64,000 nt of DNA from contig NW_019217790.1 of the NCBI RefSeq assembly GCF_002571385.2, forward strand, positions 1,399,996 through 1,463,995, in the 5' to 3' direction. Below the pieces are notes generated by a model. That model saw nothing but the letters and a program-made list of their open reading frames with translations, was not told the origin of the DNA and searched no databases. Source of the stretch: Stylophora pistillata. Taxonomy: Eukaryota. Each line of letters opens with the position of its first letter. The first letter of the stretch is position 1. The translations under genes and the position numbers were made by a program. Of this stretch, positions 4,801 through 63,259 are shown in pieces.

Positions 4801-12925
<8,125 letters not shown>

Positions 12926-18767: not shown

Positions 18768-21700
18768 TTAGTAAAGAGCAGTCCCAGTTTTTTGTATTTC
18801 CTCTTCAAATCCCGCATTCTTTTCCTCGCCCACTGTAACTGCTTTTCCATTAGATGAAATGTTCGCATCTTTGACATACTTTCCACTCCCTCTCCTTCTT
18901 GCCCTGGCATTTTTCCTGAGCCTTTTCACTAACAGATGTAACATAAATGTCACAAACGAAACCACCATTAAAAAGCCCACAACGGCAACTGCAAGAACTA
19001 AACTCGATATTGGCTTCTTTTTATATTCTTTGTCGCTGTCAGGCTTGGATTGCGCTAAAACAAAACGAAACAAATATTTTCGATCAGTTATGTGGATGCT
19101 AAAGACGATTGTTTTCGTGAGTGTTCTCTCAAGTTGAATGGTTCTGGATCTTTCATCACTCGGTGTACACTGTGATGTTGTAATATATTCCTTTGTTGTT
19201 CATTCAAGATGAAAAATGTTCAGACTCATTCGCGGCGGCACCGATTTACCTTTTCAGCTTGCCCCCATTAATATGATCTTTACTGAGACCTATTTAATTG
19301 TTAGAAAATGAAATAGGAGATATGTAATTCTGTCTATCCTGGAAGATATGTAATTCTGTCTATTCTAGAACTAAACTAATATTATTTATTATCCAGCTAT
19401 GCTTCGTAAAGTACAAATAACGCCCAAAGCGAGTACAAATATCTCGCAGTATTTGTACTACAGAGAACAGGTTAGACAAGTTTTCTCGCATTGCGCAAAC
19501 GACGAATTAATTGAAGCTAGGAAAAAAAATGGCGGACGTACTCCCTGTAGATAATCTCTTATTAGACATTTTGTTGTGTTGTATCTCTGAGTACTTTTAC
19601 TCGTTGTTTGTATTTTGACGAGCCCGCAAGGCGAGTCAAAATACGGCACAACTCGCAAAATATTCAGCGATACTATAAAACAAAACGTCTAATAAGATAT
19701 ATGTATTATTTAATATTTATTTAGTATAAATCGGGTAACATTCTATCACAAATACCGCAATCTGATTGGCTCTGCAACTCGTTCTATATTCCGTGATAAA
19801 TAGCTAGTATAAAGAGACGCCTAACAGTGTCCAGTTGTCAACAAAATAGAAAGAAAACACGAACCTATCCTCAGTTTTGAACGACTAGTAGACTTAAAAT
19901 AAAACGGTTTCTATCTATGATAGTATATTCGTGCGTCCCCCTCCATCAGCTATCAAGCGATAGAAATCTTGCGCTGCTCATAGTCCAATTGTTAAATACA
20001 GTGTATTGATTTTTGATATTACCTGTTGTCCCTATCTTGCTCTCTTTGTTTGGATCACTGTTAAATCCTCCGTTAACTTTGGAAATAACTACAGGGTTTG
20101 TTCTAAGAATTCTGGGAGTTGTCTCTGAAGAGAAAATGAACAGCGTGAACAGTGAGAAAATAACAAAACCTTTTTTTTACCTCCAACATCTAAATACCAG
20201 TCATCTTGTAGATCGAAATTCAATTTCTTGACGAGTCGTTAGTGTTTAGAATTAAGCGCTTTATCGAATAATCTTTTCGCCATTCTGCTAAAGATATATA
20301 TTTTTTTTGTTCTCATGATCCATATCAATGGCTGTTAGTTATTTCCGGAATACAATTGACAGTAGGATTTAAATTTAACCTTGGCCCGTTATCCCAAATT
20401 TATCTCAAACCACAATATCGTTTTATACGCCCGCGTACGTGTGTTAGCCTTCAATCTTGATTTCCTCGATCGTGGTTTCAAGCCGCAGACTGCTTGCGGG
20501 CGCCAAAAGATCGTAATCGATACCGCAACAAACAGATTGCGATTGTCCGGCGGTATCCAATCACTTCGAGTCCTAATGGTACTGTATTGGAGGAGTGCGG
20601 TCTGTTGGCTCATCAGGAGCACGAAACGTTTTAAAGTTGTTTGTGGAGGGCGGGAATGATTTGCGGTTCGAGGATTTTGAGAGGAGTTCACCGAAAACTG
20701 TGTGAAATTTTATCAAAACGTGCGCAAAATTTATATTTTAAAGGTGCGCAAGTTCATTATTACGTACCACCAGAATTTATCCGCGGATAGAAATCTAAGA
20801 GAGCATATTATTAATGATATATCAGAGATTGATTATCGTCACTACGGGGCTGAAAGGTAAAATCAAACCAGTTTCACTGAAATTTGCCTCCGGTCTTTTC
20901 GTCCAAGGGTCTTTTCGTCCAAGGGTCTTTTCGTCCAAGGGTCTTTTCGTCCGAAAGTCTTTTCGTCCAAGTCTTTTCGTCCAAAAGTATATTCATCTTA
21001 AGTCTGTACGTCTAATTGTTAAGTCTTTCCGCGAAGCAAATAAATAACTATTATATTATATTACAGATAAGGCTATATAAAGAACTTACGTATACCAGTG
21101 CGAGCCGTTGCCCTTTTGGTTCACCAATCTTCGTTTACGTCATGAATTTAACGATAAATACACAGAGAATGAATGAAGTTGTAACGCAATATATTTTATT
21201 AAATAGTGGCAAAAATAAAGAATTGCTTGCCGCTTAATTATTTCACGCGAAAGAAATGGGAATATTAGACTTGTTGTTAAGTGTCTATTGAGCGTAAAAG
21301 GCAACGAAATGTAACATCACTACGTGTCCGACATACCCAACAACATAGTAAACCTTCGTTAGAGCGAATGAGGAAGGATTGGTGACTAAAGCTATCGGAA
21401 CTAAAATGGCGGCGGCTCGCAACAAGTTCTTTATATAGCCTTATCTAGCCTTCTAAAAGTTATTTATTTGCTTCGAGAAAAGACTTAACAAGTAAACGAA
21501 CAGACTTAGGTGAAAATACTTTTGGACGAAAAGATTTCAAAACAGGTCGTGCTAATAACATAGGCAAATTGGCTCATATGTATTTACATCAGTTATATGA
21601 ATTCATTGCCTTGTGTGAAGTGTTACGGATGATCGACCAAAGGAGTAACATTTTCACCGAAACTACTTTCAGTACGAAGTATATTTTCAGTGCAGTTGGG

Positions 21701-24700
21701 TTTCTATGATTGCGCAGAAGTGCCTAGACACCGTATTCGATGCTTCAACGTGTAATAGGACGTGTATTTTCTGATTTGCGTAACAATTTTTAAGACGAGT
21801 TGCCCGTCGGGGCGAAGAAAAGTACGGCTAATGAGGTGAGATATCAAACCATCCAATAAGGAATTTGTTAATCCACCATGATTTCAAAATCTAGTATTTT
21901 GGCTTCCAGTTTTCGAAATTCGTATCAGAGCCTCGTCTGTGCATCGTATCGATCGCTGAAGGTGAGCGCAAAAGAGAAAAACAAAACAGACGAAACCATC
22001 AAAGTATTATCATGGCCAACAAAAACATTTATAGCACTGTTGCCCAGCTGTTCTGCAATGTGATAACGTAGCTGATTTTTCGCGTCCCAGTGCCCTAATA
22101 TGGTAAAATGGCGTAATTGTGGAACGGCGTATTTTTTGGAATAATAATTAAAAAGATAATGCGGCGGGATAAAGTTTAATTGATCTGGTACCAACCTAAA
22201 ACTTGGGTTTCAGTTGTATTCGGCCATGGTAGAGGCCAGTGAGAAAGCTTGCACAAACCATCTCCGGCATGAATTTCAGGGTAGTAAGGTATACATTGTG
22301 GAAAGTCGATGTTGTGCCTTTTAAATTCCTCGTCACAATCACGTCTCACCTCCTGGCACATTGATGGACAGGCATGAAGGGTGGAGCCATCATTACTTAC
22401 ACAAGGTGCAGTCTCAATGAAGCAGGCAAACCGTCTTAACTTGACAGAGCAACTTGAGTTTAGGACAGGGCTGAGATCGCTGAGAAAAGACCGGAGTCGA
22501 TTTCTCGTATTATTTCCTAGGCCACTGAAATTGTCTTTCAAACAGGCAGGCCGACTTGCCGTTTCACAACTTGGTAATAATGGCTCTACGAAACAATAGA
22601 AAAAAAAGACACTTTTCCTTTAGTATTCTAGTTTAATGTGTTTATTTAGTCCTTTTAGTTCCCACAGTTCGTCCAAAGATCTAACGTAAAGGAGGTTAAT
22701 GAACCACTGGTAAAACTTGACAAGTTTCTACATGAAAAGTTCTTCAGTGGCAATGTTTAAGAATATGTCAATGTTACTCGAAACGTCGCCTTGACACGTT
22801 CCCTTATCCAAAATCTTAACATGCCTTTTTTTTTGGACTTAGAGATTTGTCAAGGGAAAAGTTAATTGATCTAGTAACTTGCTACAGGAAACTGGCAGAA
22901 TACCGTTATAATGGGCTCCTGTTTAAAGAGAATTTCTATTCTTTGCCAGCAAGTTGCCATTGTCAAGTACCTTTAAATCTTATTTTTTGTCACTAATGGC
23001 TTAATTCTCTCGCGGTAGCGAACAATTCATGCCAAGTACTCATCACGTGTTATCTTTCCCGGCCATGTGAATGTAGGTAGTTTCAATATCTTGTTAGTAA
23101 GAAGTGGTGTAACCCAAAAACCTTACACCTATCTTGAGTAAAAGGCTAGCTCTCGAAACTTCAGCCTTTCAAAATTAATTGCAGAAATGACCGAGCCCTT
23201 CTCGACTTCAAGTTGTTGATGACTTAAGTATTGCGGAAATTCCGCTCGCCCGCCAACGCTCCAAACAGATTTTCAAGAAAAAAAATTTACTCTGATTTTT
23301 TACGACTTTTGTTTTCTTGATTTTTTAAAATCTCTTGAACTCACAATTTCAAAGCAACGAATAGGAAATGGTACAACTCAAAAACAAAACAGCAACTCTG
23401 CGGGCAGAACCATTTATAAAAATTCAACAGATTTCAATGCAACTCACTGCTATTTTTGGCCAAACATCGTTCAATACGCATGGAACTTGTTCGATATCGG
23501 ACCCCAAATAGGATACTTGATTTCACTCTTTCTTAAAATATTTACACTATAACTTCATGAAGCGAAAATTTGAATTTGAAAGACAGCAGTGGCTAAGAGT
23601 GAAACAAACAAAAAATCATAAACGATGTCAAAAGTCAAACATCTGCGAGACTAAGAGCAACCCAGCAAAGTTTGTCGCAAAAATTAAAACAAATTAATAA
23701 ATAAGATTAAATATGTTTGAGTCAAGCGATCTAAGTACGATGAACAGTTAAATTCTGCGCGTGCGCGCCTTGTTACCTGTCGCGTGAATTTTGCCGACGT
23801 TTTTATACCGCCACGAACGGAACTGTGAATGGGGAACTTCTTTCATTCTATAAGTCTACGAGAGAAAGTTTTGAATCGTTTATACCTGATCACTCTCTTA
23901 TTTTCGACGCAGTTTCGTGTGCTGAGTTGTTTTGTTCTACAAAAAACAAATATTTAACACTTGACATGAAAGTCTGTATAACGTTTTATATTTTCACAGT
24001 TCGTTTTTTGTTTGCACGGTCTGTTTAAAGAGGTTGCTATCACTACACATAAACAGCGAAAATATTTTTTTCATCGTCACGACATTCCGGACTAATTTGC
24101 CAAGTGTTTAAAATTCTTTGATCTAGAGATGCCATCAGTCTTCAATTCGATCAATAGGTGCCTTTATGAATTTTCTTCCCTGTTATAAAATGCATGCATT
24201 TTAATTTTTCTAAGTTGTTAGGACATTTGTTGAATAGTTGAAGTACTTGTAATTAGAAATATTAAGCTGGCGGGGTAAGTTCTTTTATCATTAGTGTCAC
24301 CAGAGGATTTATTGCATAGGTTTCAACCTTTGAACCAGTGTTCGATGTTAACGGCCCACGTGAAATTGTAAGAAGCCGATCAGTGGCATGAAAATAATTT
24401 CAAGAGTGATTTTTTCATTAAACGAAACCCGAGGGTAGCTTTGTGTGTCCTCCGAACTAAATTTTGCTCAGCTGAGGCAAACTCAAATTGAATTACACTA
24501 GGTACTTTTCAGTAAATCAAACTACGGCTGAATTGTTTAGAAAAACGTATGAGTGAAAAAGATGCACCTTTTTTCGTTTTAAGAACCTTTTCATGATAGG
24601 AATATCTGGGTTGAATTGGCGAAAATCAATGAAGATGTTAAAAAATAGTGCCAAAGCTGAGATTTAATTGAGAAAACATTTTGGCGTTTTGATGGAAAAT

Positions 24701-25568
24701 GATTTAAAAATACTATGAAATCACTTTTCTCATATTAACTTTCCCTCATCTTTGAAGTTTTAATAATAATAATAATATATTTATATAGCGCGTACATCAA
24801 ACACTTCTCGTGGCGCTTTACAATACTATGAAATAATAAAATAACCTAATAACCTAAGTTTTGCAGTCAGTGAGTTGATGTGATGTTCTTTTTTTGCTAA
24901 CAAAACGGCTTGACTTATAATTCATTGCACAAATACCACATGAATTGTAAACAATATTTAACCAACGGTCGTCTATAAATTTCAAAGAATATATTTAGCT
25001 TACGCATCAGAAACATACATTGTAATAAAGTGTGTGCAGCTAGAAAACTTCCTAAAAGATTGCAAAAAAAATTCAAGAATATTATTCAATTTTTCAGTAT
25101 ATGCTCACCTTTTTTATTTGGTCGAGGAACAAATCCAGCTGGTTTTAAACATTGCATAGATGCTTCTCTCTTAGAAGAAAGAAGTCTACAGTAGGCAACG
25201 TAACGTCTATACAGTCCACTGTCTTTTAATTCTTTATGACAATCGTCCACAAATTGATCACACACTTCTCTACAGGGTAGAATGGGGCCTTCGACGTCCT
25301 TGGAACATTTCGGAAGGTAACAAGAGCACACGAACATCCTAGAATAAGGAGAACAACTGTTGAAACGATCAGAAAAGTGGGTGACTTCTGATGAAACATG
25401 CTCTTGATAGCTCCGTCCTCCAATTTGTGAAAAATTCGCTGTAGATTTGTAGCCAACGTTGGCGCAAGCTGGAAGCTGAGTAACGTCAATTTGTTGGCAT
25501 TTGCCAGCGTATGTCGAATCAAGAGTAAGAAAAAACGCGCAGTATAAAATCAAGAGTATGAGAAACAT
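18768..25568 (-). CDS. Double Frizzled-CRD single-pass membrane protein, gene A; exons 25109-25568, 22196-22585, 20023-20124, 18768-19054
   Basis: Signal peptide MFLILLILYCAFFLTLDSTYA; CRD1 (..CSPYSRMFVCSCYLPKC..PILPCREVCDQFVDDC); CRD2 ending GLCKLSHWP; TM LVLAVAVVGFLMVVSFVTFMLHLLV then KRLRK. All introns phase 1, GT-AG. Confidence 0.8.
19550..19702. repeat. Short fold-back (hairpin) repeat; similar hairpin elements at 29823-29942, 39869-40046 and 31020-31210 (related copy ~45060-45382)
   Basis: Self-complementary arms visible in sequence, e.g. tcttattagac...gtctaataaga and tatcttattaaccaagc...gcttggttaataagata. Confidence 0.7.
20890..21545. mobile_element. Probable non-autonomous DNA transposon with subterminal tandem repeats
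   Basis: About six copies of a 14-16-bp unit gtcttttcgtccaagg at 20893-20985, and inverted degenerate units (ttttggacgaaaagat) near 21470-21540. Confidence 0.55.
24762..24826 (-). mobile_element. 3' tail of an L2/CR1-type LINE or partner SINE
   Basis: Minus strand reads ttgtaaagcgcc...gcgctatataaat followed by an (att)n tail. Confidence 0.55.
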
Positions 25569-28500: not shown

Positions 28501-28572
28501 TACAAGACTTTTGATGGAAGAAGAGCAATGACTTCTCTTAAAGAAACAATGAGGAAGAGTCTTGATTTCGCG

Positions 28573-31500
28573 TTATGCAGTCGGGTCATCAGGTTCGGTG
28601 TAAGTCGATCGCTGCTGTGTATAACCGCTTGTCCTCTGGTTGTAGCGCCTGCGCACAGTTATGGCAAGGTAGATGAAGATGATCGCAAAAAGTGGCACCA
28701 AAACGAGGGCAGCAATGAGACCCGGTGGAAAGGACTGGGGCGATATTATATTAGTCCGTGGACCTAAAAGGGAAAGAACAAAGCTGGTCATAAGATGAGC
28801 TTCAAAAAAACTCTGACAGCAAGGACTGGCCCGTTAGATAACGAAGGCGCATTTATGGAAAAAGGGTATTTTCCATTTTAAATTTTTACGTCAGATTTTA
28901 GCCGGTTAAAAGCCTTCTCTGTCGTCGGAATTCTTTTTTTGACTAAAAACGAAAAGGCTTCAAAACATTTCCGCCGGCGCCCCAGCAGACGTCAACACTT
29001 ATGATTCACGCGACAAAAAAATTGTTTTGCAGAGTATGAGGAACAAAAAATGTACTTTATTGTCTTCCTGAATATCACCCGGTCCGTCTTGATGTTGAAC
29101 AACGTATTTTATACAAGGACAATTACTCAATCGTTATTGATGATATTTTGAAGTCTATATTTGTTGATAAAAGAGGGGAAAAAACGGCAGAATCACGTAG
29201 GAAGTTCTTGAATATTGCCAGATCGCTTAAATTTACGAAAGACATGACCCAACGTCCTCTACGCAAGTGGCTATATTTGGCATAAATTGCAAATAACAAT
29301 TCCGTGTTATCAAGTGTATAGAGGCGTTAAGATTGAATTAGGGAATATGAAGAAAAGTTTATTCTGGGAAAATATAAATATTGACCAAGGACGTGAGATA
29401 GTACACTAATAAAGTGATGTAAAAAAAAGAGAAGCTAACAAAACCGCCGATACCACTGACAATGCTGATACATTCCAAAGTTGTTTCATGGAGGTGATCA
29501 AACTCATTGTCGTTAACTGCATAGAAGGAAGCTTTCGCTTTTACCGTGATAGGGGAGGAAGTGAAGTCAAAGAGAATAAATATATTTTGAGTTGGAGAAG
29601 TTTTAGTACACAACAGATTGCATGGTTTGTGTAGCTAAGGTAATGTTCCACTCACAAATGACCAGTTTATGCACGCATCCAAAATTGAATCAGTACCAAA
29701 GAAGCTCTTACCTGAATACAGACATTTGGTGTTAAAGTTAGCTTTTAGAAAATCTCAAAAACTAGCTCATGATGCAGAAAAATATGTTAATTCTGTCTTA
29801 CGTAGATAGCTTAGATTAGAAATATATCTTATTAACCAAGCGCGAGGGCCGTACTGGGAGAATATCGCTCGGTCCGTACAAAAAAGACTGAGGGCCGATA
29901 TTCTTCCAGTACGGTTCCGAGCAAGCTTGGTTAATAAGATATATTTAATTTGTGAAACCGGCTGAAACCAATATTAGAAATGCATGTGTGAGACCTTCTA
30001 TTGATTCACTGGTTTGGAATTTCACGCGTTGTCGGCATTATACTGACCCCCCAAAAAAGAGTTTTGCGGTGAAACGCGATTTGACGCGACTGGAAAATTG
30101 AAAAAGTTTTCGAAATTGTTCATATATTGCTGAAAATTTAAACAGGCATCACTGAAGTAAAACTAAGGTTCTCACCGAAAGCAGAGGAATTATTATGTGA
30201 GGATTTTCAATTGCACTGATTTGTTCTCTCTCCGTCTCTCCCCTGCAAAAGCATGTACAGCAACCTAGCGTTTGTCAGAGGACGATTTTTTAAGTCTGTT
30301 CTCTGAAATTTCCAAAAGTTTCCTTTGTTTAGTTCATCGACACAAGCGAGCCTCTTTCCAACCTTAAATGTGTCCAGTGTGTGAGTAATCGTTTTGGGAC
30401 AAAGCATAATTGGCCAGGCTTTTCTTCAAAAATTACCGACAACAACTTCGCAAGGCGTGCTCATGTTGAAAGGATTTGTCAAATCATAACGAGACAGAAT
30501 ATCTTGCTGAGCAAACTAATGCTGGACAAATTTTATGCCTCCCAAAATTTTAGGATTCTGACGACACCCAGACGAGATATTCAATGTAAAGAGCTTATTC
30601 AGAATGATACAGCCAGTCTTGTAGTATAAGCATCCTATTAGAAATGGTCAAACCCAAGACTGACGCTTAAATAATCCGAAACCACCATGATGACCCATGA
30701 TGCCACACGAACTCTTCAACGTGCCATCAGAATAATTATTTCTGACTAATTCGTTCCCATATCACTCAAACGTCAGAAATAACATTTTACTGTGGGAAGA
30801 GGTGGAAGAAAGGGAATGGGGTTGGGCGAGAGCTTCCAAGCCTTCCCACTCCTCCTCCGCTACCTTTGATGGTAGCTGGACGAACAGTTTGCGATCAAAC
30901 TATGAAGTCAAATTCTCTCACAGCAGTCACATTATCTCTTAATGTCAATCTACAATGCATTTGTTATCTAAATGGTTAAGATAATAACCAACATGATGAT
31001 TTGGCTGCTATTTTTAATTAACAAATGGTAAACACCACAGCGTACACTATTGAGTTATGGATGCACGCGGGAGGTTGCTAAGCACGAAAGAAGCGTAAGA
31101 GTCGCTCGAGGCGATAGCCGAGAGCGACTCTAGCTTCCTGAGTGCTTAGCAAACCTGCCAAGTGCATCCATAACTCAATAGTGTACGCTGTGGTGTTTAC
31201 CATTTGTTTTATAACATAACATTGATATATTGTAGCTAAAGAGTTCCTTTTATTTAACAAATCTTACGCGACCAGAAAAAACAAACGCGCGCGGAAAAAT
31301 AGTCTTTGCATTTGCTCACGTCAGCAGCGTACACCCATGGGCAAATGGGGGACGCTAAATTGACCAATCAGAGCGCGCGCTTTACTTTGGTTATGTTATA
31401 AAGAGGTATATTCGGTGAGAAAGCCTTCTTATATTCTCACCTGATTCCCAATGTCTCGCACTTGGCCACCTGTTTAGCTCACAAAAACCGCTTTTCGAAT

Positions 31501-34074
31501 ATCCCTCAGCCGGCTCAGCGCAGTAGGCTATCACTTCCGCAATATTAGCTGCTTCTGGACAATCGTCAAACAGGTCAACACACTCTGACCTGCATAGTGT
31601 CTCCATCTTGTTTCCTTTACATGGGGGTGTGTACGATGCACAAGCCAGCTTCGCGAGAATATTCTTACACTTCTCACTTTTGACGTTTTTCATCCACTGT
31701 CTCATAGTCTTGCTTTCCTTTTCTTGGAAGGTTTTGTTCTGTGTTTTTCCTGGTACAAAAGTATTCCGCCCGCCACTGAACAGTTCACTGCAGTTTTCAT
31801 ATTTAACCTTTTCTTTACAAGACAAACCTGTGTGTGTTACAGAAGAAGAAGGAAAACGATCACTATTTACTTTGAAAAGTGAACATACGGGAAGTGGAGT
31901 GGTAATGAACGGAGGGGAAGGGTGTCATCTTATTTTAAAATGTGTGTGGTGATCATGATCTATTCACTTGTTAAATTGGTAGTGAAACCGTTTCCTTTCA
32001 GCAATTTCAAACAAAAAGTTCTCGATTGAAAATGGAGAATGGGCATTTCTTTGTTTTGTTTTTTTTTTTTACTCGAGCTTCCTGTGGAATGCCCGAGTTA
32101 TAAATTGGGCTTCGTTATTTTCCGTCTTGAGACGTAAAACGCAGTCTAGCAAGCAAAGCGCATGCGCTCAGTATGCTTTATCAGTTGCGAAGTAAGCAAG
32201 CAACTATACGGCATTCAATCGGGAAGTGTATACCCAGGTAAGCTTCAAAGCATATGGTTATCATGACGACCAGAAACATGCCCCGTGATTCAAGGGTAAA
32301 TATGTCTTATCATACACTCAAACTAAATACAAAAGCACACACTTCGTAGTAGACCTACACTACAAGTTGTCGAGCGTTTTCGGATAACAAGCAGAAATTA
32401 AATGAAACAACACTCTTCGTCAGTTTACATGCCTTTGTATACATTCCTAAGCAAAGAAGCCCGAGTTCACGCAGTTAGGTGTCTAGCTTTTCATTAACTT
32501 AGGCTTCATTGTGAAAACAACAGTATTTTTTTTTTTTTAGCGGGCACAAATGTTTTGGGCCCAACTCAGAGTCATTTAAGACTGAGCCGCTTGGCAAGGG
32601 CTAGGATGACTCTAAGAAGGGCCCAAAATATATTCATGCCCAAGGATATAAGGACTGTAAAGAAGGGACTGAGCCGGGAGCTCCATTACAGCTGGAGCAG
32701 CATTGAAAAACTGGTTAAAGATAAGCAGGGTTGGAAGGATCTCGTTGCTGCCCTCATGTGCTCCACAGGCATGATGGGCAGTAAGTAAGTAGTAAGTAAG
32801 GATATAAACTGTTTTACTACTGTCATCATTTTGAAGGGTATTGGGAAAAAAAAAACTATAACTGCAGAGTCTGAACAATCACGCGAGGGTACGAGCGGGC
32901 TAGAATGTTCTAAAATTCATTTTGCTCGAAAAAATGCGCCACAATGCCCGAAAAGTGATGATGATTTTCAGTTTATTCCCGTTTTGTCATTTTGTTTTAC
33001 TTTTTGATGAATAAAGAACAGAGCTTTTCCGGTTTTGTCTTACGACTTTTCGGAGCAAAGTCTTAACAATTTACCTCAATATGGATCATTTTTCTTGCCG
33101 CCTTTTTGTTCACAGCTTATTTTCATACCGGGTTTTAGCTTTTAGACGCGTTGATGGTTGTTTTTGTCAGTTTCCGGTTTCCGATAAACACCAATGCCCC
33201 CCTTTAATGTCAAAATTAACACCCCGAATTTATCGGTATTTGCTCGCTAAGAATGTTAGCCAAAGATGTTACCCATTGTAAACGTTACTGAAATTACTTT
33301 CTCGTTGCTCGTCGATGCTGAGGAAAGAAGTAACTTTTCACAAAGGGCAATAGACCACTTTCATAAATGGCTGCCGGATTATTTAAATTTAAATTAGTCC
33401 CTACTGGCCTCGTTCTCCAGTACAAAATTCAAAAGAATACATTATCTCAAGCGAGGCCAGTAGGGCTAATTTAAATTTAAACAAAAGAATATTTATACGG
33501 CAGCCATTTATTAAAGTGGTCTATTTATGAACTACAGAACAACAATCACTAGATTTAATTAGGTTTCGTTCAACATCGACATGTTCATATGCTTACCTCG
33601 AGTAAAGCTTGCTTTTGAATGCATGAAATTCTCGGGTTTAATACATCTAGGGTTTTCGGTCTTATTTTGTAGAACACTGCATAGCGACTTTAACCAGTTC
33701 AATCCAGTGAAATCCATTTGCGTGCCACAGTCGTTGACAAATTCCCAACAAACTTCTTGGCAAGGTAGTAGCGGTCCCTTCTCGTGGCATCTCGGTACGT
33801 ACAGCGAACAGAGCATAAAGGATGTGTACTTTGAGCAATCATCGAGTTTTACCGTAATGTAGTTGATTATATCCGCATAGCTTCTGGCGTAATACTTATT
33901 CGCAAGACTTACAACCGTGACATTGAAGCCTTCTTTGACACAATCTGGGAATTTTGTCGCATCTACTTTGCCACAATTTGATAGCGCCGAGATCGGGTCG
34001 CTCTGATCCGTCTTTCGAGGTAGATTTGTCACGGACACAATGAACGCTATGTTTAAAACGACTTTTGCATTCAT
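28573..34074 (-). CDS. Double Frizzled-CRD single-pass membrane protein, gene B; exons 33597-34074, 31441-31827, 28573-28763
   Basis: Hydrophobic N-terminus; CRD1 with GFNVT and CSLYVPRC..PLLPCQEVCWEFVNDC; CRD2 ending GFCELNRWPSARHW; TM LIAALVLVPLFAIIFIYLAITV then RRR; tail SGYTQQ. Phase-1 introns. Confidence 0.85.
32649..32799 (+). mobile_element. 3' end of an RTE-like LINE
   Basis: RTVKK..ELHYSWSSIEKLVKDKQGWKDLVAALMCSTG..* immediately followed by a (GTAA)n tail. Confidence 0.65.
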
Positions 34075-39000: not shown

Positions 39001-39513
39001 AGATGAATGTTTAAAAGGGCGTAGCATTAATATAAATTTTTACTTACTTGTGTTGTCAAGTCGCGGCCTATAATTTCCCGGCAGATAACATTCTTTTCCT
39101 TTGCTGTTATTCTCCGATGACGGCAGCAGATGACAAAGTCCTTTAATCCATTCCAGTTTTTCGTATTCCACTTTCGTCTCACAGTCTCTGACAAAATATT
39201 CGCAGACTCTTCTACATGGCAAAACAGGGCTATAGTTTTCTTCCACGCATTTGGGAACATTAATAGCGCACATAATGGTATCTAAATATTGCGAGCAATG
39301 CCCAAACTGTTGTACTTCCCGTTTCAGATTATGCGCGATGATGCTTTCGCGTAGCGTAGAATTACCGGGAAATTTAGCCGTAAAATTATACCCGGCTACT
39401 TGAATACATCTTTGAAATAAATTCGTATTTAGTCGTTGGCAGATTTGACCGAAAACGGCGGTTAAATACACCAAAAAGAGAGAAATTATCACTGGTGTCA
39501 GCGCAATATTCAT
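36033..39513 (-). CDS. Double Frizzled-CRD single-pass membrane protein, gene C; exons 39048-39513, 37179-37589, 36033-36316
   Basis: Signal MNIALTPVIISLFLVYLTAVFG; CRD1 with GYNFT and CAINVPKC..PVLPCRRVCEYFVRDC; CRD2 ending GFCTLTKWPTAGRW; S/T stalk; TM LPVVAIIVSTVVVVLSIIVVTAFLLLL; tail LGYKRH. Confidence 0.85.
36710..37035. repeat. Dispersed repeat rich in ttttcggttt; inverted related copy at ~50860-51257
   Basis: gggcattgggatcttcggttttgcgg at ~36710 versus aaaaccgaaaatcccaatgccc at ~51235-51257; shared gcggcaattatgc core. Confidence 0.65.
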
Positions 39514-39890: not shown

Positions 39891-39926
<36 letters not shown>

Positions 39927-44600: not shown

Positions 44601-45648
44601 CGATTAAAAAATGAATTTCTACTTTTAATTAGCATTTCGAAAATTGCCGCAGGTGTTTACTATCTCTTACGGCGCCACACCTCAACCTCAGCGTAACGTA
44701 TGGTAGCAGCGCTGTGTTCCAAATGGAAATTACAATAATTTGCCGTCGCAGTTTCCGTTCGCAGACGACGCAAATTTTGGTGATTTCTCGTTGTTGTTTT
44801 GCAAAGGACGGCTAAGAAATGTACAAAGTTTTAAAACGCACGTGCTGAGCTATTGTTCTGCCCACTAGATCTTTTGTTTTGCCATGTCCTCGTTGCCGTC
44901 GCCGTCGGGGTTTGCTTAAGGTCCTTATTCACAAATAGTAAACATATCACAGCCAGCAGAATACGGGGGGACAATGGGGAGAGCGAATTAGGTTACATGC
45001 TTTTATACTACGTGGTACGGCGAGACAGCCCATAGCTCCCTCGTATACTTCTGCGGCCCACTTTAGCAAAGTGAAGCGCGCTCTCTGTTGGTCGATTCAG
45101 TGTCCACCATTTACTCATGGGTGTACGCTGCTGACGTGAGAAAATGCATAGACTAGTTTTCGCGCGCTTGTTTTTTCTTGGTCACGTATGATTTGTTACA
45201 TAAAAGGGAACTCGATGTCATGAAACAAATTGTAAACACCACGGCGCTCACTATTGAGTCACAGATTCACTCAAGAAGCTAGAATCGCTCTCGGCTATCG
45301 CCTCGGGCGACTCTTACGCTTCTTTCGTGCTTAGCAACCTCCCACGTGCATCGATAGTGCACGCTGTTGTGTTCACCATTTGTGAGTGAGACTCTAACAG
45401 GACTTCTCCTTTCTAACAATTTTTCAGATGAGGAAGGACAGTCCACGAAAGAAGCTCCAACCGAAAGCGCCAAGTCTAAAGGTCTCCAAACATGGGTGAT
45501 CGTGGTGTGTGCGCTGGTGGCATTTATCGTTATAGGAATTATTATACTTGTAGCCTTATGCATAAAATGGCGTCGTGCTCCCCTGACCTCAGGGTATAAG
45601 AAACAAGAAAACGATTTAACCACTCTGGAGAATTCAGTTGACCTCTGA
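41639..45648 (+). CDS. Double Frizzled-CRD single-pass membrane protein, gene D; exons 41639-42140, 43286-43613, 44142-44257, 45428-45648
   Basis: Signal MSFLALCVMLLCSFDAALS; CRD1 GYNTT..CSFFIPHC..CRRVCGEFLKKC..CFEPPNF; CRD2 PLDRGCQELILPAC...GYCKRTEWP; TM WVIVVCALVAFIVIGIIILVALCI; tail SGYKKQ...SVDL*. Intron phases 1, 2, 1. Confidence 0.88.
44559..44926. mobile_element. MITE, possibly Harbinger-like, in gene D intron 3
   Basis: TIRs GGACCTTAAGCA / TGCTTAAGGTCC. Confidence 0.65.
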
Positions 45649-49900: not shown

Positions 49901-50537
49901 GTCTGTCTCTCTCTTACCCATACAGTCTGTCAGTCAGTTCATCAGTCAGTCCATTTCCAAGTCTGTCAGCTAGCCAGCCAGTCAGTTCATTAGCTAGTCC
50001 ATTTCCAAGTCTGTCAGTCTGTTTGTCAGCTAGCCAGCCAGTCATTTCGAAATTCATCAACCAGTCCATTTCCAAGTCTGTCTTTCTGTCAGCTAGCCAG
50101 CTAGTCAGTTCATCAGTCAGTCCGTTTACAGATCTTTTAATCAGATCTTTTAATCAGTCAGTCTGTCAGCTGGACAGCCACTCAGTACACCATCATTCTG
50201 TCAGCTAACCAGCCAGTCACTCAGTGCGTCAATCAGTCTGTCCATGTGTCTCTACATTTGTGGGTGTGTCCCTCTTCCTTTCCTCTAAACTGATCTTAAT
50301 TTTCCCGATCAATTATTTCTAGCTGCAACAAAATCTCCGAGTCTGATCCTCGAGAGCCATATGCATCATGGTATCAAAGTGTGGCAGATTTTCATAGCCG
50401 TTTTTATTCCTACACTAGCTGTTGGGCTTGCTGTAGCAGTGGCGATATGGATGAAGAAGAGAAGTTCTCGACATTTAGCAGCTTACATCAAACATTATGA
50501 AAGAGACGCTGATGATACCTTTCCCTTGGACACGTGA
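46975..50537 (+). CDS. Double Frizzled-CRD single-pass membrane protein, gene E; exons 46975-47473, 48704-49031, 49686-49798, 50323-50537
   Basis: Signal peptide; CRD1 ..CSLVVPKC..PVYPCRQVCAEYLRRC; CRD2 PLDRGCQELIFPAC...GYCQSTKWP. The last exon (absent from the ORF track) reads ATKSPSLILESHMHHGIKVWQIFIAVFIPTLAVGLAVAVAIWMKKRSSRHLAAYIKHYERDADDTFPLDT*. Intron 2 has a GC donor and contains an N-gap. Confidence 0.85.
47490..47633 (+). mobile_element. Short dispersed repeat carrying a minimal hammerhead-like motif; copies at ~34351-34445 (+), ~48254-48360 (-, partial) and ~53459-53605 (-)
   Basis: gct-CTGACGA-a-GGGC-taac-GCTC-GAAA-tg-TC-agc followed by a shared body ttattcgttac.gtggccaatttac..tttcaac. 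Confidence 0.65.
49885..50245. repeat. Degenerate (CAGT/CAGC)n simple repeat in gene E intron 3
   Basis: Recurring cagtc, ctgtcag and agccagcc units; explains the spurious Ser-rich ORF 49870-50208. Confidence 0.75.
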
Positions 50538-55340: not shown

Positions 55341-58300
55341 ATGCCTGTTTATTCAACAGAATTACCAAGCTGCTTTTTTATCAAGATCAGAGCGCTGTTA
55401 ATATGCAGCTTGGGTGTTCTAACCGTTGTTCACGGTGAATCGATAGAAGGCAAATGCGTTAGCCTTTCGAATGGACATTTCGATTTCTGCACAAAAGGTG
55501 GATACAACAGCACGCTATCATTTCCCAAGGAATTCACAGCGGAGCGTCAGGCCCAAATGGCCGAATTTTTAATGTTCATCATAGAGCAATGGAGAAATTG
55601 CACAACTACTAGTCTGGCAACAGCTATGGAATGTTCGTTTTTCCTGCCCAAGTGCAGTTCGGAGGGAACACGCGTCTATCCGTGCAGGCGAGTCTGTGGA
55701 GAGCTGTTGAAGCAGTGTCAGAAAGACACAGGCGAATTCCGGGAGCTCTACATGGACTTGTTTCTAGCCTCGTGTTTAATTCTGCCAAATGAAACAGCGA
55801 GCAGTGAGAAATGCTTCGAGCCACCTGGCTTCAGTCCAAATAACAACGTATCGAGTAAGTTTGTGGAGTCTATTAATTGTTTTTTTAGTCACCAAAACAA
55901 ACCCTGTTCCAGACATTGAAAGCAACAACGCAATCGTACTGGCGAGATACGATAGAATGGGAAAACAGTTTTCCTTCTTTTTCCTAACTTTTCTGCGCGT
56001 TTTCATGTGTCATTTGATCACCGGGACCAAGCTGCTTTTTTTTTGTTACTACCTCTCAGAGGTAGAATATGGGGGAGTGGGACCGGTTCTGCTAATACCT
56101 GACTGAGGAAGGGAGGGAGGGAAGGATATTGTCACGCAAATCGCGTTGTGAGTATTATCAAGTTCAAGGCGGTGAGTCTTTACTCATTAGTGCAATCCTT
56201 ATAGGCATGAGGAAAACTTGTTGAAGACCGCCTTGATGAAGACTGCCTTGATGAAGACTGCCTTGATGAAGACGGCGTTTCACAAGCATTTGCATTTATC
56301 CTAGGCTTTTTCTTATCGGTTCCTTGTTATGTTTCCTTTATTTTGATTGGTTGCTGATCGCTCATGATCATTGTTATGTTTCTCAGTCGAAATGTGATTT
56401 GAAAGTCTTTTGTTTTATTTTTTCGTTTTTCTTTCCTTTAACTGTAGGCCCTCTTGATCGCGGCTGTCAAAACTTGATCTTTCCCGCCTGTAAAAACCTG
56501 GGTTTATACAATCACACCATCTTTACAGAGTCAGTCCAGAAGAAGCTTTACTATCTTTTTTACAACAAGACATACGGCGACGGGCAACTGTTAGATCAAG
56601 GTTTTCCCATGGTCCTTGAAATGCAGGTGGCAAAGTATCCGAAATGCGCGACAAACATAAAAAAATTATATTGTGGAGACCTGTTCCCTCCATGTTTTCC
56701 AGAGGAAGGGAGTCCCACATTTAAAACCTTGTGCAGATCGGTTTGTAATGATATTCAAAGGGAATGTCCAGATTATTTCGGGTAAGAGTATATCTTAGAA
56801 GTATTCAGATTGTGTCTTGCTCGTTGGCAATTAGCGATCGGTACTACTAGTATGTGTAAAGGCGAAGCGTTATCCAAAAGGTTGGAGCGCTGAATTCTGT
56901 ATCGAGAGATCCGAGATGAAACGACGGTAAGTTCAAAGTGTTATGTCTTGGATGACATTGCCTCTAACCACCCAAGACCATAATGGTTACCAGCGAACTG
57001 TTTTAAAGGTCCCNNNNNNNNNNNTCCTCCTCCTCCTCCTCCCTCTCCCCCCCTCGTTGACAATTAATTTTCTATAGCCTCCCTTTTATACTTTGTTGGC
57101 GATGACTGATGCCCCGTCCGTTCCCCCCTGCAAAACAGTGTGATCTTTAAAAAAAAAAAAATCCTTCCCTACCCTCCCCTCCCCTAGATAGAGACTGATC
57201 TCTTCTCTTTTTTTTTGTATGTGTTTTTTTGTATTTGTTTTATTTATCAAAGTAAAGCTTAATCGCAATTGCGTCTGCGCTTTCCTTTTAGAGAAAATTA
57301 CTTGAGTGCGGAAATGTGTGCTCTCTTTGCACCGGGGAACACGAGTCATGGCTTTTGTGATCGCACAGAATGGCCTGAACCGTTTTTCTGGCTGACATAT
57401 TTGGGGGAAGGTGAGCCCTTACTAAACCTTTACGTCCTAACATCAGTATTCATATTCTCCATACTGTTCTCTTTACATTAATTGCCTAAGATGCGGACAA
57501 GGAAAATTTGTGTAACAATCAAGAACTACTTAAGTTTGTGATCTTTTCCTTTGTGTAATTTTCGGATGATAAGAGATGCTAGCGACTCTTAGTGGTAAAA
57601 GGGTTTTCCTGTGTCTTGCTTTTTTGGCCTATGAAACATTGCGCTAATCAAATTGAAGCAATTTAGTAAGGATTATCTCAATAGAAACCTGGATATAGGT
57701 TATATTACAGAATAAACGAGACTTACTTTGTTGAAGAACATTCCCACGGTTTCAGGCTTGCGCAGTAAGTGGTGAAGCGAGAAGAGGTTTCACTCAAAGT
57801 TCTGCCTTGATTTTTGTCGAGCGCTCAAAAGACTACCTGTTACCGTGACGATGGCTAGCTCAGTAAAGAACTGGAACAAAAAGTCAATGCTTCGTATGCA
57901 TAAGATTCTCAGACATATAAGACATATAATCATCATTGGACAGTTCATATAACGGAGTCAAAGATCATTCGATTTGTCGTGACTTCAATACCATACCCTG
58001 AACAAAGAAGTAGTCCTCAAAATTGCCACGATTTCTCTGAAAGTTAATGTTGCATAGCATAAAAAAAAGAAATCAAGTCGGGTAACAAAAACGTCTCTGG
58101 TCATCATGTCTATCATCGAAACTGGCAATTATCTAAACTCTCAGGAGTGACAAAGAAGTTATATCTCCTTTGAATATGAAACGTGGGCGCGTAGCCAGCT
58201 TTTCGACTTGTTCCAGGCATTTTAAGAGATCTGTAAGCGTGCTAACCCAGCGCTTTAACATTACGAGATTTATTCTTGCTGCTTCTTTGTCGTTTTTGAA

Positions 58301-58719
58301 CTCGAAAATATATATGTCTTGATAAATATATCATGAAAGTCACGCAACGGCAAAAAAATTGTCAGCCTACGGGGCTACAGGCTGATCACGCCCCTATGAA
58401 ATTTGATTCAACATCAAACTCTCAGATCCAATATAATAAGAAATTTGTAGCAGACAGTAAAGGGAACTACTATTGACATATTGGGAGTGAAGGGGCTAAT
58501 CAACGGATGAATCGTTTCACAGATTTCAACACGGAACCACCATCAGTGGAACCAACCGATGAAGGACCTAAAGGGTGGGTCATTGCCGTGGCGGTCTTGA
58601 CATCCCTCATTATTGTTGCACTCGGACTGGCTGGGCTCATCTGGTGGAAGTGGCGTGGAATCGCTCCTGCTAGCTGGCTAGGTTACAAGAAACAACAAGA
58701 TTTTACAAACGAAGAGTAG
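55341..58719 (+). CDS. Double Frizzled-CRD single-pass membrane protein, gene F; exons 55341-55854, 56448-56781, 57292-57410, 58523-58719
   Basis: Signal ..RALLICSLGVLTVVHG; CRD1 GYNST..CSFFLPKC..RVYPCRRVCGELLKQC..CFEPPGF; CRD2 PLDRGCQNLIFPAC...GFCDRTEWP; TM WVIAVAVLTSLIIVALGLAGLIWW; tail LGYKKQ. Intron phases 1, 2, 1. Confidence 0.88.
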
Positions 58720-60309: not shown

Positions 60310-63259
60310 TTACAACTCGTCCATATCCACCATAAGACTATGTCTATATTGGCTTTTGATTCGATGGAATCTTCTGAAGCAAACAACACCAGCTGCAATG
60401 GCGATTATAAGGACGATTACACCAACCACAATGCCTGCAATAGTTCCTCCTGACATTTTAGCAGCCTTGGTCGCGCTCACTTTCGGGGTCAGACCTGCAA
60501 AATACAAGAAATATTATCAAATATCAGGTTTGTTTAGAAAAAACTCATTCCTTTTTGCCAGGGTGGTTGGAGGATTTTGGACGTGTCACAATAAGATTTT
60601 CAATTTGCAGTTGTGATTTTAAAGCCCCACCCTCCCCCCTCACCATAGTGGTTATGTGTAATAGAGTTCCCCTTTGTACTCTGTTAGTGACCTTTAATCC
60701 CTCCCCATTAGCGGTTCCTTTAGAACTCTAGAATTCTCCGACCTTCCCCCTCCCCTCCCCCACCAAGAAAGAGAAATAACGACTGGTCCTTTATGAGGTA
60801 GGCCTCGGGAGGGAAAATTTATGCCGCAAGCTACAACTCAATCATTTCAAAGCAAATGCACATACTTCTCCCTGGCAGTAAACTGTGATTCCAAAAACTC
60901 AATGGGTGACATGACGAAATGTTCTCCTCAATTGGGCTCTTACCTTTTTTGGTTCCTTTGGTTATTGATGTAGGCGTAGCACTAGGCGAAGGCGTGGGTA
61001 CCTTGGTCGCCGGAGCCGACGTCTTTTCCTTGGTTGATGGCGGAGGTGTGGTTCCCGCAGTGCTAGATACATGTGAGCTGGGTTTATTAGAAGGAGATGC
61101 AGGCGTGGTTACCTTGCTCGCCGGAGCCGACGTCTTTTCTTGGGTTGATGACGGAGGTGTGGTTCCCGCATGGCTAGATACATGTGAGCTAGGTTTATTA
61201 GAAGGAGATCCGGGCGTGGTTTCCTTGGTCGCTGGAGCCGATGTCTTTTCCTTGGTTGGTGGCGCAGGTGTGATTCCCCCAGTGCTAGATACATGTGGGC
61301 TGGGTTTATTGGAAGGAGATACAGTCGTGGTTACCTTGGTTGATGATGAAGGCGCGGGCGGTGTAATTTTATTCGTGGAAGTTGAAGGTGCGATTACCAT
61401 GGTCGATGGTGAAGGTTTGGCAGCCTTTGTACTAGCTGAGGTCGAACTGGTGTTATTTATGGTCGTTGTAGGCGTGGTGGCCTCACTCGATAGTGAAGGT
61501 TTGGGTGTCTCAGTGGTGGGTGCAGACGGCATGCTTTTGTAGTTCGACGTTCCAGGCGTGGTTACCTCGATCGTCGAAGTTGGCTTGGTTACCGTAACCG
61601 ATGGTGAAGAGGTTGAGTTGGGTGTGGTTGTGTCAGTGATTGGTGAGGACGTTGGGGGATAAGTTGACGGTTTAATTGGGTTTAACATTCGTGTTGTTTG
61701 ATGCGTGGTTACGTTGGTTGTTTCAGTTTTTGGTTCAGTTGTACTAATACTGGATGGTACTGTTGACTCCGTTACGGAATTCTTCTTCTGTTGCGCTGAA
61801 AGATACAGACACAAACAAAGATGTAAAAACCACAAATCACTTGCTTTTGGAAAAAAAAAGTCATTGGAACTTAAACAATCCGTAAAATACCTGTCATTTC
61901 CAAAGACATCCACAAACCGCTGGGCCAGTAAACATGGTCCGGCCACTTTTGGAGTTGACAGAGCTCTTGTCCACGTTTTGTTCCGTTTGGGAAAGCTAAG
62001 CAGTATTCTTGGTCTTTGAACACTTTGTTAAACTCTGAACGTGACTCTTTAAATGCATCATCGCACAAAGACTTGCAGGGAACTTGTAACTGCGTAGAGG
62101 TTTTGTTATCGCATGGCGGCGCTATCTCCATACAGATAACCTTACGAAGCTTGGTTGAGTTACCATCGACTCGTTGAAAGATTGTACTTGAATTCACCAG
62201 CTTCTGATAGTCACTCGTAACAGAAGTATAATTATAGCCAAACTTCTGACATTGTTTCAAAACAAGCATGTGACATGTGACATCTGAAAAATGAATACAT
62301 AAAGAACACAAAAAAGTTCAAATGACTTGATATTTTGAGGTCTGTTTTCAGTGACGTTTACGTGTATACTTTTGAGCAAAGAGAGATGGTTTGCGATCAA
62401 ACTTCAAATAATATTTTAGAAGAAAATTATTGCAATTTCAGTTCGGTTCGAAAGCAAATAACAAAAGTAAAAAAAAATTTTGTCATAATTGTTTGCATAC
62501 CAGAAACGGTGAGTCACCTGCTAAACTCAAAACACCTTCTAAAAGGCTTTTAATTTTGAAGCTGCGCCAAATGTTGAATGTAAAACCACCGATGCATGAC
62601 AATTGCGTGTTTCTAGCGTGATCCTCTTGAACTTACACAATTATTGATATTGCAAACTAGTTAGTTTTGCATAACGTTCAGCGGTTACAAATAGCACGGC
62701 TCGAAGAAAATTGTTTAAATATTCAAATCTCCTGGTGACTCGCAAGGCATAATTATATTGCAAATCGAATGTTAGCTCGCGTACTCTACCGAAAAATTGT
62801 CGTGTACTTACTAGAATTATCTGTGCCATTGTCGTTAGAATGGTTTGACTTTGATATACAATTGGTCATCGGAAGAACCTCGCAAAGGCCGCGGAATAAA
62901 GATTTTAATCCATCGCGTTCGCTTGAAGTGTTCCCACAATCAGTTAGAAACTTCTTGCACGTGTCTTTGCAAGGTAGCTTCGGCGAAGAGCATTTCGGAA
63001 TATGAAGCGAGCAAGTCATGAGATCAGACAACGAGGAGCAGTTAAACTTTCCCTGCATGTGGGAAATTAGACTTGACATCTCTTGTATGCTCGAATTCGA
63101 TGCGGAAGAATTGTGAAAGCCCTCCTGTACGCAGTTTTTGAACAAAGTCGTGTTAAGCGGCTGACATTTTGAACCTGAAGCGAAGTCGAGGAGTAAAGCG
63201 TCCAAAGAAACGAAAAAGAAACCAGTGAGAATCCTCATTGTCAATTTTTTTGGCGACAC
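60310..63259 (-). CDS. Double Frizzled-CRD, mucin-stalk, single-pass membrane protein, gene G; exons 62812-63259 (alternative ATG 63238), 61891-62283, 60944-61795, 60310-60494
   Basis: Signal MRILTGFFFVSLDALLLDFASG; CRD1 CSLHIPKC..LPCKDTCKKFLTDC; 8-Cys CRD2 ending LCQLQKWP; 284-codon Thr/Ser/Pro exon; TM IAGIVVGVIVLIIAIAAGVVCF; tail SQYRHSLMVDMDEL*. All introns phase 1. Confidence 0.85.
60985..61320 (-). repeat. Coding tandem repeat, 3 x 111 bp (37 aa), in the gene G mucin stalk
   Basis: gctagatac recurs at 61062, 61173 and 61284; unit PSNKPSSHVSSTAGTTPPPSTKEKTSAPATKVTTPAS. Confidence 0.9.

What the first reader, a model, noticed from the sequence alone, without database searches (positions are those of the whole stretch)
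18768..60494. Conserved juxtamembrane tyrosine motif in all seven cytoplasmic tails
Seen: otherwise unalignable tails share a Tyr about 9-17 residues after the TM: A GKYVKD, B SGYTQQ, C LGYKRH, D SGYKKQ, E AAYIKH, F LGYKKQ, G SQYRHS, usually followed by acidic residues. None shows the Frizzled KTxxxW motif. Established: pYxxQ is the STAT3 SH2 docking motif, and GYxx-hydrophobic is an AP-adaptor sorting signal. Inference: the proteins signal or traffic through this Tyr rather than through Dishevelled, so they may be more than passive decoys.
Basis: partly seen in the sequence, partly recalled or inferred. Interest (0 to 1): 0.7.

Follow-up and report, generated by a model that had tools for sequence, protein, structure and literature searches.

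The report
Coral Frizzled-domain receptors with STAT-type tyrosine
Seven neighbouring coral genes encode single-pass membrane proteins with two Frizzled-type domains, and five of their short inner tails carry a Tyr-x-x-Gln/His motif also found in sea anemone relatives, likely a phosphorylated docking site for a signalling protein such as STAT rather than a classic sorting signal.

Summary
All seven motifs are at the stated places, in the last exon of seven tandem genes (signal peptide, two Frizzled CRDs, one TM helix, 21-52 aa tail). Six models are identical to RefSeq Stylophora pistillata proteins, and RNA-run contigs cover or splice the TM exons. The Tyr alone is unremarkable: 5 of 9 unrelated tails have one. 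The real signal is Y-x-(K/R)-(Q/H). Yxx[QH] occurs in 5 of 7 window tails (0.83 expected) and 31 of 47 family tails (4.8 expected). It is kept in corals of several families and in two Nematostella clades. A and G keep a Tyr in another context; paralogue I has none. The AP-adaptor reading fails its own definition: YxxΦ 0 of 7 and 2 of 47, below chance. KTxxxW is absent (0 of 47). The genome has a STAT5/6-like STAT with an intact SH2 pocket; no JAK was found (weak negative). Best reading (0.42): kinase-less receptors whose tail Tyr is phosphorylated in trans and docks an SH2 protein, most likely STAT. A phosphorylation-independent trafficking signal is a close rival (0.33). Ligand, kinase and partner are untested. 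I found no description of this family in the searches run.

The parts
18768..25568 (-). Gene A: 412 aa, signal peptide, 2 Fz CRDs, short stalk, TM, 52-aa tail; exons 25568-25109, 22585-22196, 20124-20023, 19054-18768
   Evidence: model; Pfam Fz; contig of run X5 holds three exons with a 102-base gap that fits the small exon; P0235 differs at 2 residues
18867..18884 (-). A tail motif G-K-Y-V-K-D; Tyr kept in 7 of 7 clade members, +3 is D/K not Q; C-terminal Tyr also kept
28573..34074 (-). Gene B: 351 aa, 2 CRDs, TM, 26-aa tail; exons 34074-33597, 31827-31441, 28763-28573
   Evidence: both joints in 4 of 4 runs; identical to P0228
28612..28629 (-). B motif S-G-Y-T-Q-Q (YxxQ, 3 of 3 clade members), followed by a second conserved Tyr (YxxP, 3 of 3)
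36033..39513 (-). Gene C: 386 aa (RefSeq name 'frizzled-4-like'), 2 CRDs, TM, 30-aa tail; exons 39513-39048, 37589-37179, 36316-36033
   Evidence: joint 36316/37179 in 3 of 4 runs; identical to P0020
36075..36092 (-). C motif L-G-Y-K-R-H (YxxH, 6 of 6 clade members)
41639..45648 (+). Gene D: 388 aa, 2 CRDs, TM, 27-aa tail; exons 41639-42140, 43286-43613, 44142-44257, 45428-45648
   Evidence: last two joints in 4 of 4 runs; identical to P0215; AlphaFold2 model of near-identical P0012, pLDDT 84, pTM 0.72
45589..45606 (+). D motif S-G-Y-K-K-Q (YxxQ, 8 of 8 clade members), followed by [DEN]-D-x-x-x-L
46975..50537 (+). Gene E: 384 aa, 2 CRDs, TM, 27-aa tail; exons 46975-47473, 48704-49031, 49686-49798, 50323-50537
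   Evidence: model; identical to RefSeq P0238; RNA-contig cover of exons, joint not listed
50478..50507 (+). E tandem motif Y-I-K-H then Y-E-R-D; two clade members read Y-x-K-Q twice in tandem
55341..58719 (+). Gene F: 387 aa, 2 CRDs, TM, 23-aa tail; exons 55341-55854, 56448-56781, 57292-57410, 58523-58719
   Evidence: joints; identical to P0209
58678..58695 (+). F motif L-G-Y-K-K-Q (YxxQ, 7 of 7 clade members)
60310..63238 (-). Gene G: 618 aa, 2 CRDs, about 290-aa Ser/Thr/Pro stalk, TM with Gly repeats, 21-aa tail; exons 63238-62812, 62283-61891, 61795-60944, 60494-60310
   Evidence: joint 60492/60942 in 3 of 4 runs; identical to P0237
60337..60354 (-). G motif S-Q-Y-R-H-S; Tyr kept in the one orthologue found (Pocillopora), +3 is Ser

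Best explanation
These are kinase-less, single-pass receptors with two Frizzled-type domains, and the conserved tail motif Y-x-(K/R)-(Q/H) of paralogues B-F is likely a membrane-proximal phosphotyrosine docking site, most likely for the SH2 domain of the coral's STAT. Shown: architecture, spliced transcripts, motif conservation from corals to Nematostella, no YxxΦ or KTxxxW in the window tails, a STAT with an intact pTyr pocket. Inferred: a ligand (Wnt, another lipidated protein or a lipid; unknown) clusters the receptors; a kinase acting in trans (Src-family or a partner receptor kinase, as the tails have no kinase and no evident Box1) phosphorylates the Tyr; STAT docks, is phosphorylated and leaves. 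A separate acidic-leucine element after the motif (D/E clades; a full dileucine in anemones) would handle internalisation. A and G would use the Tyr differently.
For: Q or H at +3 in 31 of 47 tails vs 4.8 expected; hydrophobic +3 depleted, 2 vs 9.8. Within-clade identity over 99 pairs is 0.79 at -1, 0.68 at +2 and 0.83 at +3, against 0.28-0.37 at -6 to -2. One tail drawn per clade: mean 5.9 of 10 clades carry Yxx[QH] vs 1.2 shuffled. YxxQ is in Nematostella members of two well-supported ectodomain clades (P0047, P0067). The E clade repeats the tetrapeptide in tandem, and 18 of 47 tails have two or more Tyr beyond residue 6, some in SH2-type contexts (YxxP 3 of 3 in B, YxN 4 of 7 in A). STAT gene with FLLRFS SH2. 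Precedent: a CD8-TM fusion of the kinase-less FLT3 juxtamembrane piece with the same YKKQ was Tyr-phosphorylated and raised a STAT3 reporter only when membrane-anchored (PMC7242328, section read). Fly Domeless has a YxxQ proposed as the site for its STAT (PMC4751595, passages). A basic residue at pY+1 is normal in gp130's site (PMC12014907, passages).
Against: No binding or phosphorylation data. YxxQ is the STAT3 rule, and the coral STAT is closest to STAT5/6; STAT5 is reported to bind YxxL. Gln exchanges with His three times (clade C, part of E, a Nematostella H copy), which the STAT3 rule does not foresee. No JAK found with three Pfam families, a weak negative because STAT_bind also missed the STAT that is there; the one paper on it says both detected and not detected in cnidarians (PMC13203501). 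Gly at -1, K/R at +2 and a following acidic patch are also typical of sorting signals (recalled). Basic neighbours make a poor Src substrate (recalled). The motif is absent in A, G, I, in the Montipora H member and in 4 of 5 anemone D/E/F-like proteins, three of which keep an acidic dileucine.
Confidence: 0.42

Rival explanations
1. The motif is a phosphorylation-independent trafficking signal: a non-canonical relative of YxxΦ with polar Q/H at +3, working with the acidic patch and the Leu at +10. The proteins would be cycling scavenger or cargo receptors that clear or move a lipidated ligand, not signal.
For: Position 10-17 residues from the membrane; Gly at -1 (weighted 0.47) and K/R at +2 (0.66) resemble lysosomal and TGN Tyr signals (recalled). 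[DEN][DE]xxxL in 14 of 47 tails and a full [DE]xxxL[LIVM] in 4 anemone tails. A few relatives have an aromatic or hydrophobic +3 (P0105 YFGL, P0062 YKKY), and paralogue I has F at the matching place if read without a Tyr. Q/H interchange fits a tolerant pocket.
Against: The defining bulky hydrophobic residue at Y+3 (definition in the abstract of PMC2121048, search listing) is absent in 7 of 7 window tails and depleted family-wide. A search for YXXQ with sorting terms gave 3 papers, none showing such a signal in its listing (full texts not read). Tandem and extra Tyr motifs suit phospho-docking.
Confidence: 0.33
2. The motif binds a non-SH2, non-coat adaptor, such as a FERM protein (GxY-type juxtamembrane motif) or a TRAF (x-Q-E type), anchoring the proteins to the cortex or to NF-kB signalling.
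For: Basic juxtamembrane stretch plus Tyr; Q followed by acidic residues; D-type C-termini look like class II PDZ ligands (motif definitions recalled; sequences).
Against: GxY in only 3 of 47 tails and [PSAT]x[QE]E in 5 of 47; TRAF consensus does not need the invariant Tyr (recalled).
Confidence: 0.13
3. The shared Tyr is inherited or coincidental with no common function, and the proteins are passive membrane-tethered ligand traps.
For: The genes are paralogues; a Tyr at 8-20 occurs in 5 of 9 unrelated tails; several members lost it.
Against: Y, +2 and +3 are kept while flanks diverge, across paralogues only about 24-40% identical and between corals and Nematostella.
Confidence: 0.07

Closest known systems
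Frizzled receptors (CRD fold)
   Same: Both ectodomain repeats hit Pfam Fz (13 of 14 CRD exons at or within 0.5 bit of the cut-off); CRD1 profile hits Frizzled-8 CRD at E 4.6e-14; model aligns to Fz2 CRD at Z 9.2, rmsd 3.0, 112 residues.
   Different: One TM helix instead of seven, two CRDs, no KTxxxW (0 of 47), no FxPL[VI] or GFxWP stretch (0 of 37).
Class I cytokine receptors with YxxQ (gp130, fly Domeless) and the short receptor Et/Latran
   Same: Single-pass, no kinase domain, YxxQ in the tail (passages).
   Different: Fz CRDs instead of FNIII/cytokine-binding modules; 21-52 aa tails; a PxP/Box1-like pattern in only 3 of 47 tails and none of the window's; JAK not found.
Membrane-proximal YxxQ sites of type I membrane proteins (FLT3 566-YKKQ)
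   Same: Same tetrapeptide as D and F; active without the receptor's own kinase when membrane-anchored (PMC7242328).
   Different: Shown in mammalian cells with STAT3; there it lies about 3 residues from the membrane (FLT3 segment starts at 564) and the full protein is a kinase.
ROR/MuSK, MFRP, corin (membrane proteins with Fz CRDs)
   Same: Fz CRD on a single-pass protein; MuSK and ROR2 CRDs match at Z 7.2-7.5.
   Different: No kinase domain seen, tails end within 52 residues; no kringle, CUB, LDLa or protease domain reported by Pfam on the exons scanned; type I topology (MFRP and corin are type II, recalled).
LAMP/TGN38/mannose-6-phosphate-receptor type tyrosine sorting tails
   Same: Short tail, Tyr near the membrane, often Gly before and acidic residues after (recalled).
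   Different: Y+3 is Q/H, not bulky hydrophobic.

Membership tests
Frizzled receptor | Fz cysteine-rich domain | tested here: met
   Pfam PF01392 on all 14 CRD exons; fold matches
Frizzled receptor | seven-pass TM domain | tested here: not met
   one TM helix then a stop within 21-52 residues
Frizzled receptor | KTxxxW Dishevelled motif | tested here: not met
   0 of 47 tails; 4 of 4 true Frizzleds of the genome have it
Wnt-binding CRD (Frizzled/sFRP type) | binds Wnt through the lipid groove | tested here: inconclusive
   FxPL[VI] and GFxWP absent in 37 of 37 family proteins, present in 4 and 3 of 4 coral Frizzleds; their role in the groove is recalled; binding itself not tested
STAT3-type docking site | YxxQ in a cytoplasmic, membrane-proximal position | tested here: met
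   B, D, F (3 of 7); 23 of 47 family tails; C and E have His instead; A and G do not meet it
STAT3-type docking site | a STAT with an intact SH2 pTyr pocket in the organism | tested here: met
   G000:C116 about 133-139 kb, FLLRFS motif, best matches STAT5A/B then STAT6
STAT3-type docking site | Tyr is phosphorylated and binds the STAT SH2 | not testable with these tools
   needs biochemistry
Class I cytokine receptor | cytokine-binding/FNIII ectodomain | tested here: not met
   ectodomain is two Fz CRDs
Class I cytokine receptor | Box1 JAK-binding motif and a JAK partner | tested here: inconclusive
   no PxP pattern in the 7 window tails; JAK families gave no real hit but exon-wise search is insensitive
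AP-adaptor tyrosine signal (YxxΦ / GYxxΦ) | bulky hydrophobic residue at Y+3 | tested here: not met
   0 of 7 window tails; 2 of 47 family tails vs 9.8 by shuffling
Acidic dileucine signal [DE]xxxL[LI] | acidic residue at -4 and a hydrophobic pair | tested here: not met
   0 of 7 window tails; met ([DE]xxxLV) only in 4 anemone relatives; D and E keep only the first Leu
ROR/MuSK receptor kinases | cytoplasmic tyrosine kinase domain | tested here: not met
   stop codon 21-52 residues after the TM in all seven

The most novel reading that the evidence does not exclude
An anthozoan family of kinase-less receptors, built from tandem Frizzled CRDs, is a missing upstream input of the cnidarian STAT. 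It is a cytokine-receptor analogue that couples Wnt-like or lipid ligands to STAT through a YxxQ/H site, possibly without JAK, and has been kept as a gene cluster since corals and sea anemones split.
Probability: 0.22. Interest if true: 0.82.

Novelty: new variant of a known kind. Interest (0 to 1): 0.47.

Why it matters
Nematostella has a single STAT whose knockdown did not affect the cGAMP response (PMC8713801, passages), IL6R-type receptors were traced only to molluscs, and JAK in cnidarians is reported inconsistently (PMC13203501). I found no receptor for cnidarian STAT in the searches run. This family gives named, testable candidates with Nematostella orthologues (LOC116611633, LOC5500375). 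If the sorting rival is right instead, it is a non-canonical Tyr-x-x-Gln/His trafficking motif conserved across hexacorals. Either way the annotation 'frizzled-4-like' or 'uncharacterized' hides a conserved cluster of at least nine paralogues.

Tried and rejected
ESM Atlas: no usable hit by features for P0008 and no model; no information. Genome-wide DNA pattern for G-Y-x-K/R-Q-x-D/N-D/E: 3 hits vs 1 in the reversed control, only D lies after a TM, so the strict motif is not common in other single exons. JAK searches with PF17887, PF18377, PF21990: one E 0.75 hit with a stop and no sign of a gene, otherwise nothing; weak, since PF02864 missed the real STAT. Foldseek gave no match at E<=0.001 for the whole model, best rows Fz8 and MuSK CRDs; CRD2 was barely tested structurally, and its weak sequence match to Smoothened (E 1e-5) spans TM columns, so I do not build on it. 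No complex was predicted: Wnt and the STAT SH2 are split over exons here and phosphotyrosine cannot be modelled. TRAF and FERM motifs were counted and found sparse. P0089 was first grouped with G and moved to H after the tree. The careful tree did not finish; the quick tree was used. Fz loci on C106, C227, C226, C54 gave long ROR-like or no tails, and C229, C1, C26 no clear TM exon. Earlier scan findings: none. Literature searches listed no paper on this family; passages of PMC13581030, PMC8662651, PMC3296744 and PMC6723221 added nothing usable.


Full report
Observation. All seven hexapeptides are in the window once each, in frame behind a hydrophobic helix and 21-52 residues before a stop. 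Fourteen upstream exons hit Pfam Fz, two per gene. I built spliced models from GT-AG boundaries and contigs of four runs, three on record as RNA and one guessed. Joints into the TM exon are listed for B and D (4 of 4 runs), F (4 of 4), C and G (3 of 4). One contig carries three exons of A. For E the tables list exon cover only. Contigs cannot show level or strand. The models are identical to RefSeq Stylophora pistillata proteins for B-G, and A differs by 2 residues from a transcript-derived protein. RefSeq calls them uncharacterized, 'frizzled-4-like' or 'POM 121-like'.

What the proteins are. Each has a signal peptide, two CRDs of about ten Cys, a stalk (about 290 Ser/Thr/Pro-rich residues in G), one TM helix and a short tail. 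Paralogues are about 24-40% identical. An AlphaFold2 model of a D allele on a 90-row alignment has mean pLDDT 84 and pTM 0.72, with the tail disordered. CRD1 aligns to Frizzled, sFRP, MuSK and ROR2 CRDs at Z 7-9; CRD2 was barely tested. The cluster goes on beyond the window with at least two more genes: H, whose tail has YxxQ, and the multi-CRD gene I, whose tail has no Tyr. Relatives come from Pocillopora, Orbicella, Oculina, Acropora, Montipora, Actinostola and Nematostella; the named Nematostella records share one longest-contig length. Only the best 150 of 1,810 profile hits were seen, so the range outside Hexacorallia is open. A quick ML tree of the first 330 residues (this includes the tail in four short rows, and the careful search did not finish) gives supported clades A, B, C, G, H and D/E/F, with Nematostella members beside D/E/F, in H and beside I.

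Is the Tyr more than chance? By itself, barely: 5 of 9 unrelated tails in hand (3 of 7 counting orthologue pairs once) have a Tyr at 8-20, a small control. The context is the signal. I examined 47 family tails, taking every hit with a TM and a short tail that I could assign to the family, the seven window genes included; fragments without a TM and long-tailed proteins were dropped. Of these, 42 have a Tyr at 5-20, 23 YxxQ, 8 YxxH, 27 Yx[KR][QH], 2 YxxΦ and 0 KTxxxW. Within-tail shuffles expect 4.8 Yxx[QH] (max 13 of 5,000) and 9.8 YxxΦ. For the window alone, Yxx[QH] is 5 of 7 against 0.83. These rows are related; drawing one tail per clade gives a mean of 5.9 of 10 against 1.2, and 0.2% of shuffles reach 5. 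In a full-length alignment of 24 sequences the Tyr is the only invariant column after the ectodomain. Anchored on the Tyr (circular for position 0 only), within-clade identity is 0.79 at -1, 0.68 at +2 and 0.83 at +3, against 0.28-0.37 upstream. By clade: B 3 of 3 YxxQ, D 8 of 8, F 7 of 7, C 6 of 6 YxxH, E 2 YxxQ and 2 YxxH of 4, H 2 of 3, A 0 of 7 (Tyr in 7 of 7), G 0 of 2, I 0 of 2, anemone D/E/F-like 1 of 5. So there is one shared motif in B-F and H, not in all seven.

The AP-adaptor signal needs a bulky hydrophobic residue at Y+3 (abstract of PMC2121048 in the search listing); this was tested and not met. The STAT reading fares better. The genome has a STAT with the SH2 FLLRFS motif, closest to STAT5 and STAT6 among solved structures, and a candidate activation-Tyr exon right after the SH2 (inferred from position and phase). 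PMC4751595 (passages) gives YxxQ for STAT3/gp130, YxxL for STAT5, and a YxxQ in fly Domeless that may be the STAT92E site. PMC7242328 (section 7 read) shows that a kinase-less, membrane-anchored FLT3 piece with YKKQ and YESQ is Tyr-phosphorylated and raises a STAT3 reporter in mammalian cells; the tyrosines were not mutated singly in the text I read. PMC12014907 (passages) shows Arg or Lys at pY+1 in gp130. Against it: His replaces Gln three times independently, the STAT is not STAT3-like, no Box1 is evident, and no JAK was found in three weak searches (one search shows the method can miss a present gene). PMC13203501 (passages) contradicts itself on cnidarian JAK. Supplements of these papers were not read.

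The trafficking rival stays close. Gly at -1, Lys/Arg at +2 and an acidic patch are what sorting tails look like (recalled). D and E carry [DEN]-D-x-x-x-L in register with a full acidic dileucine in four anemone relatives, two of which have lost the Tyr. I read this as a second module that could do the trafficking and leave the YxxQ/H for signalling, but a single composite sorting signal fits as well.

The ectodomain. The 'decoy' idea presumes Wnt binding. The FxPL[VI] and GFxWP stretches seen in Frizzled-8 and in 4 and 3 of 4 coral Frizzleds are absent from 37 of 37 family proteins. Wnt binding is therefore open; another lipidated protein or a lipid is as likely (inference).

Verdict. The feature is real and conserved from reef corals to Nematostella. 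It is best explained as a phosphotyrosine docking site on kinase-less receptors, with STAT the likeliest reader (0.42 for SH2 docking, about 0.28 for STAT itself); a non-canonical sorting signal is next (0.33). The proteins are not Frizzleds, not cytokine receptors and not ROR/MuSK kinases by the features tested; they may work like cytokine receptors. Two literature searches for the family and two look-ups in earlier scan notes showed no description, within the limits of that library. Novelty: new variant of a known kind. Interest 0.47.

Noticed in passing
L001:5539-5805(-), L001:9100-9612(-), L002:3661-4218(-) (G000:C7, right of the window): Eighth paralogue H; its tail has YxxQ followed by a second Tyr and acidic residues, and this stretch is nearly unchanged in Nematostella LOC5500375.
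   Followed up: partly
L003:2480-8913(-): Ninth paralogue I with about six CRD exons; its tail has no Tyr but an F-x-x-Q-x-F-x-N pattern kept in Oculina and Nematostella.
   Followed up: partly
P0031, P0033 (orthologues of window gene A): These two proteins carry an extra Cys-rich insert between CRD2 and the TM; in P0031 (Acropora muricata) it is annotated Activin_recp (PF01064), giving a kinase-less Fz-Fz-activin-receptor-domain protein.
   Followed up: no
window 18768-18930 (-): A's 52-aa tail is the most conserved over its length, ends in a Tyr in 7 of 7 members, and reads YxN (Grb2-type, label recalled) in 4 of 7.
   Followed up: partly
window 60834-61795 and 60380-60460 (-): G has a mucin-like stalk with internal repeats and a TM helix with two GxxxG in series, a possible dimerisation face (motif recalled).
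   Followed up: no
G000:C116:133.8-139.6 kb and C122:29.7-30.9 kb: The STAT locus scores identically on two contigs, and one SH2 exon appears twice across an N gap on C116; probably an assembly artefact.
   Followed up: no
window 1220-2383(+), about 4800-11700(-), 16509-16835(+): Neighbours: a RanBP1/zinc-finger nucleoporin-like exon and a GNAT acetyltransferase exon (Pfam), and exons that read like an MCM helicase subunit (by eye).
   Followed up: no
G000:C227 416-483 kb, C226, C106 575-704 kb: Further tandem arrays of divergent Fz-domain genes; those on C227 and C226 have a TM followed by what reads like the start of a tyrosine kinase domain (ROR/MuSK-like).
   Followed up: partly
window 42112-43313 and 56205-56780: RNA-run contigs cover D's first intron and show an alternative acceptor at 56205 for F exon 2; retained introns, isoforms or DNA in the libraries were not told apart.
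   Followed up: no
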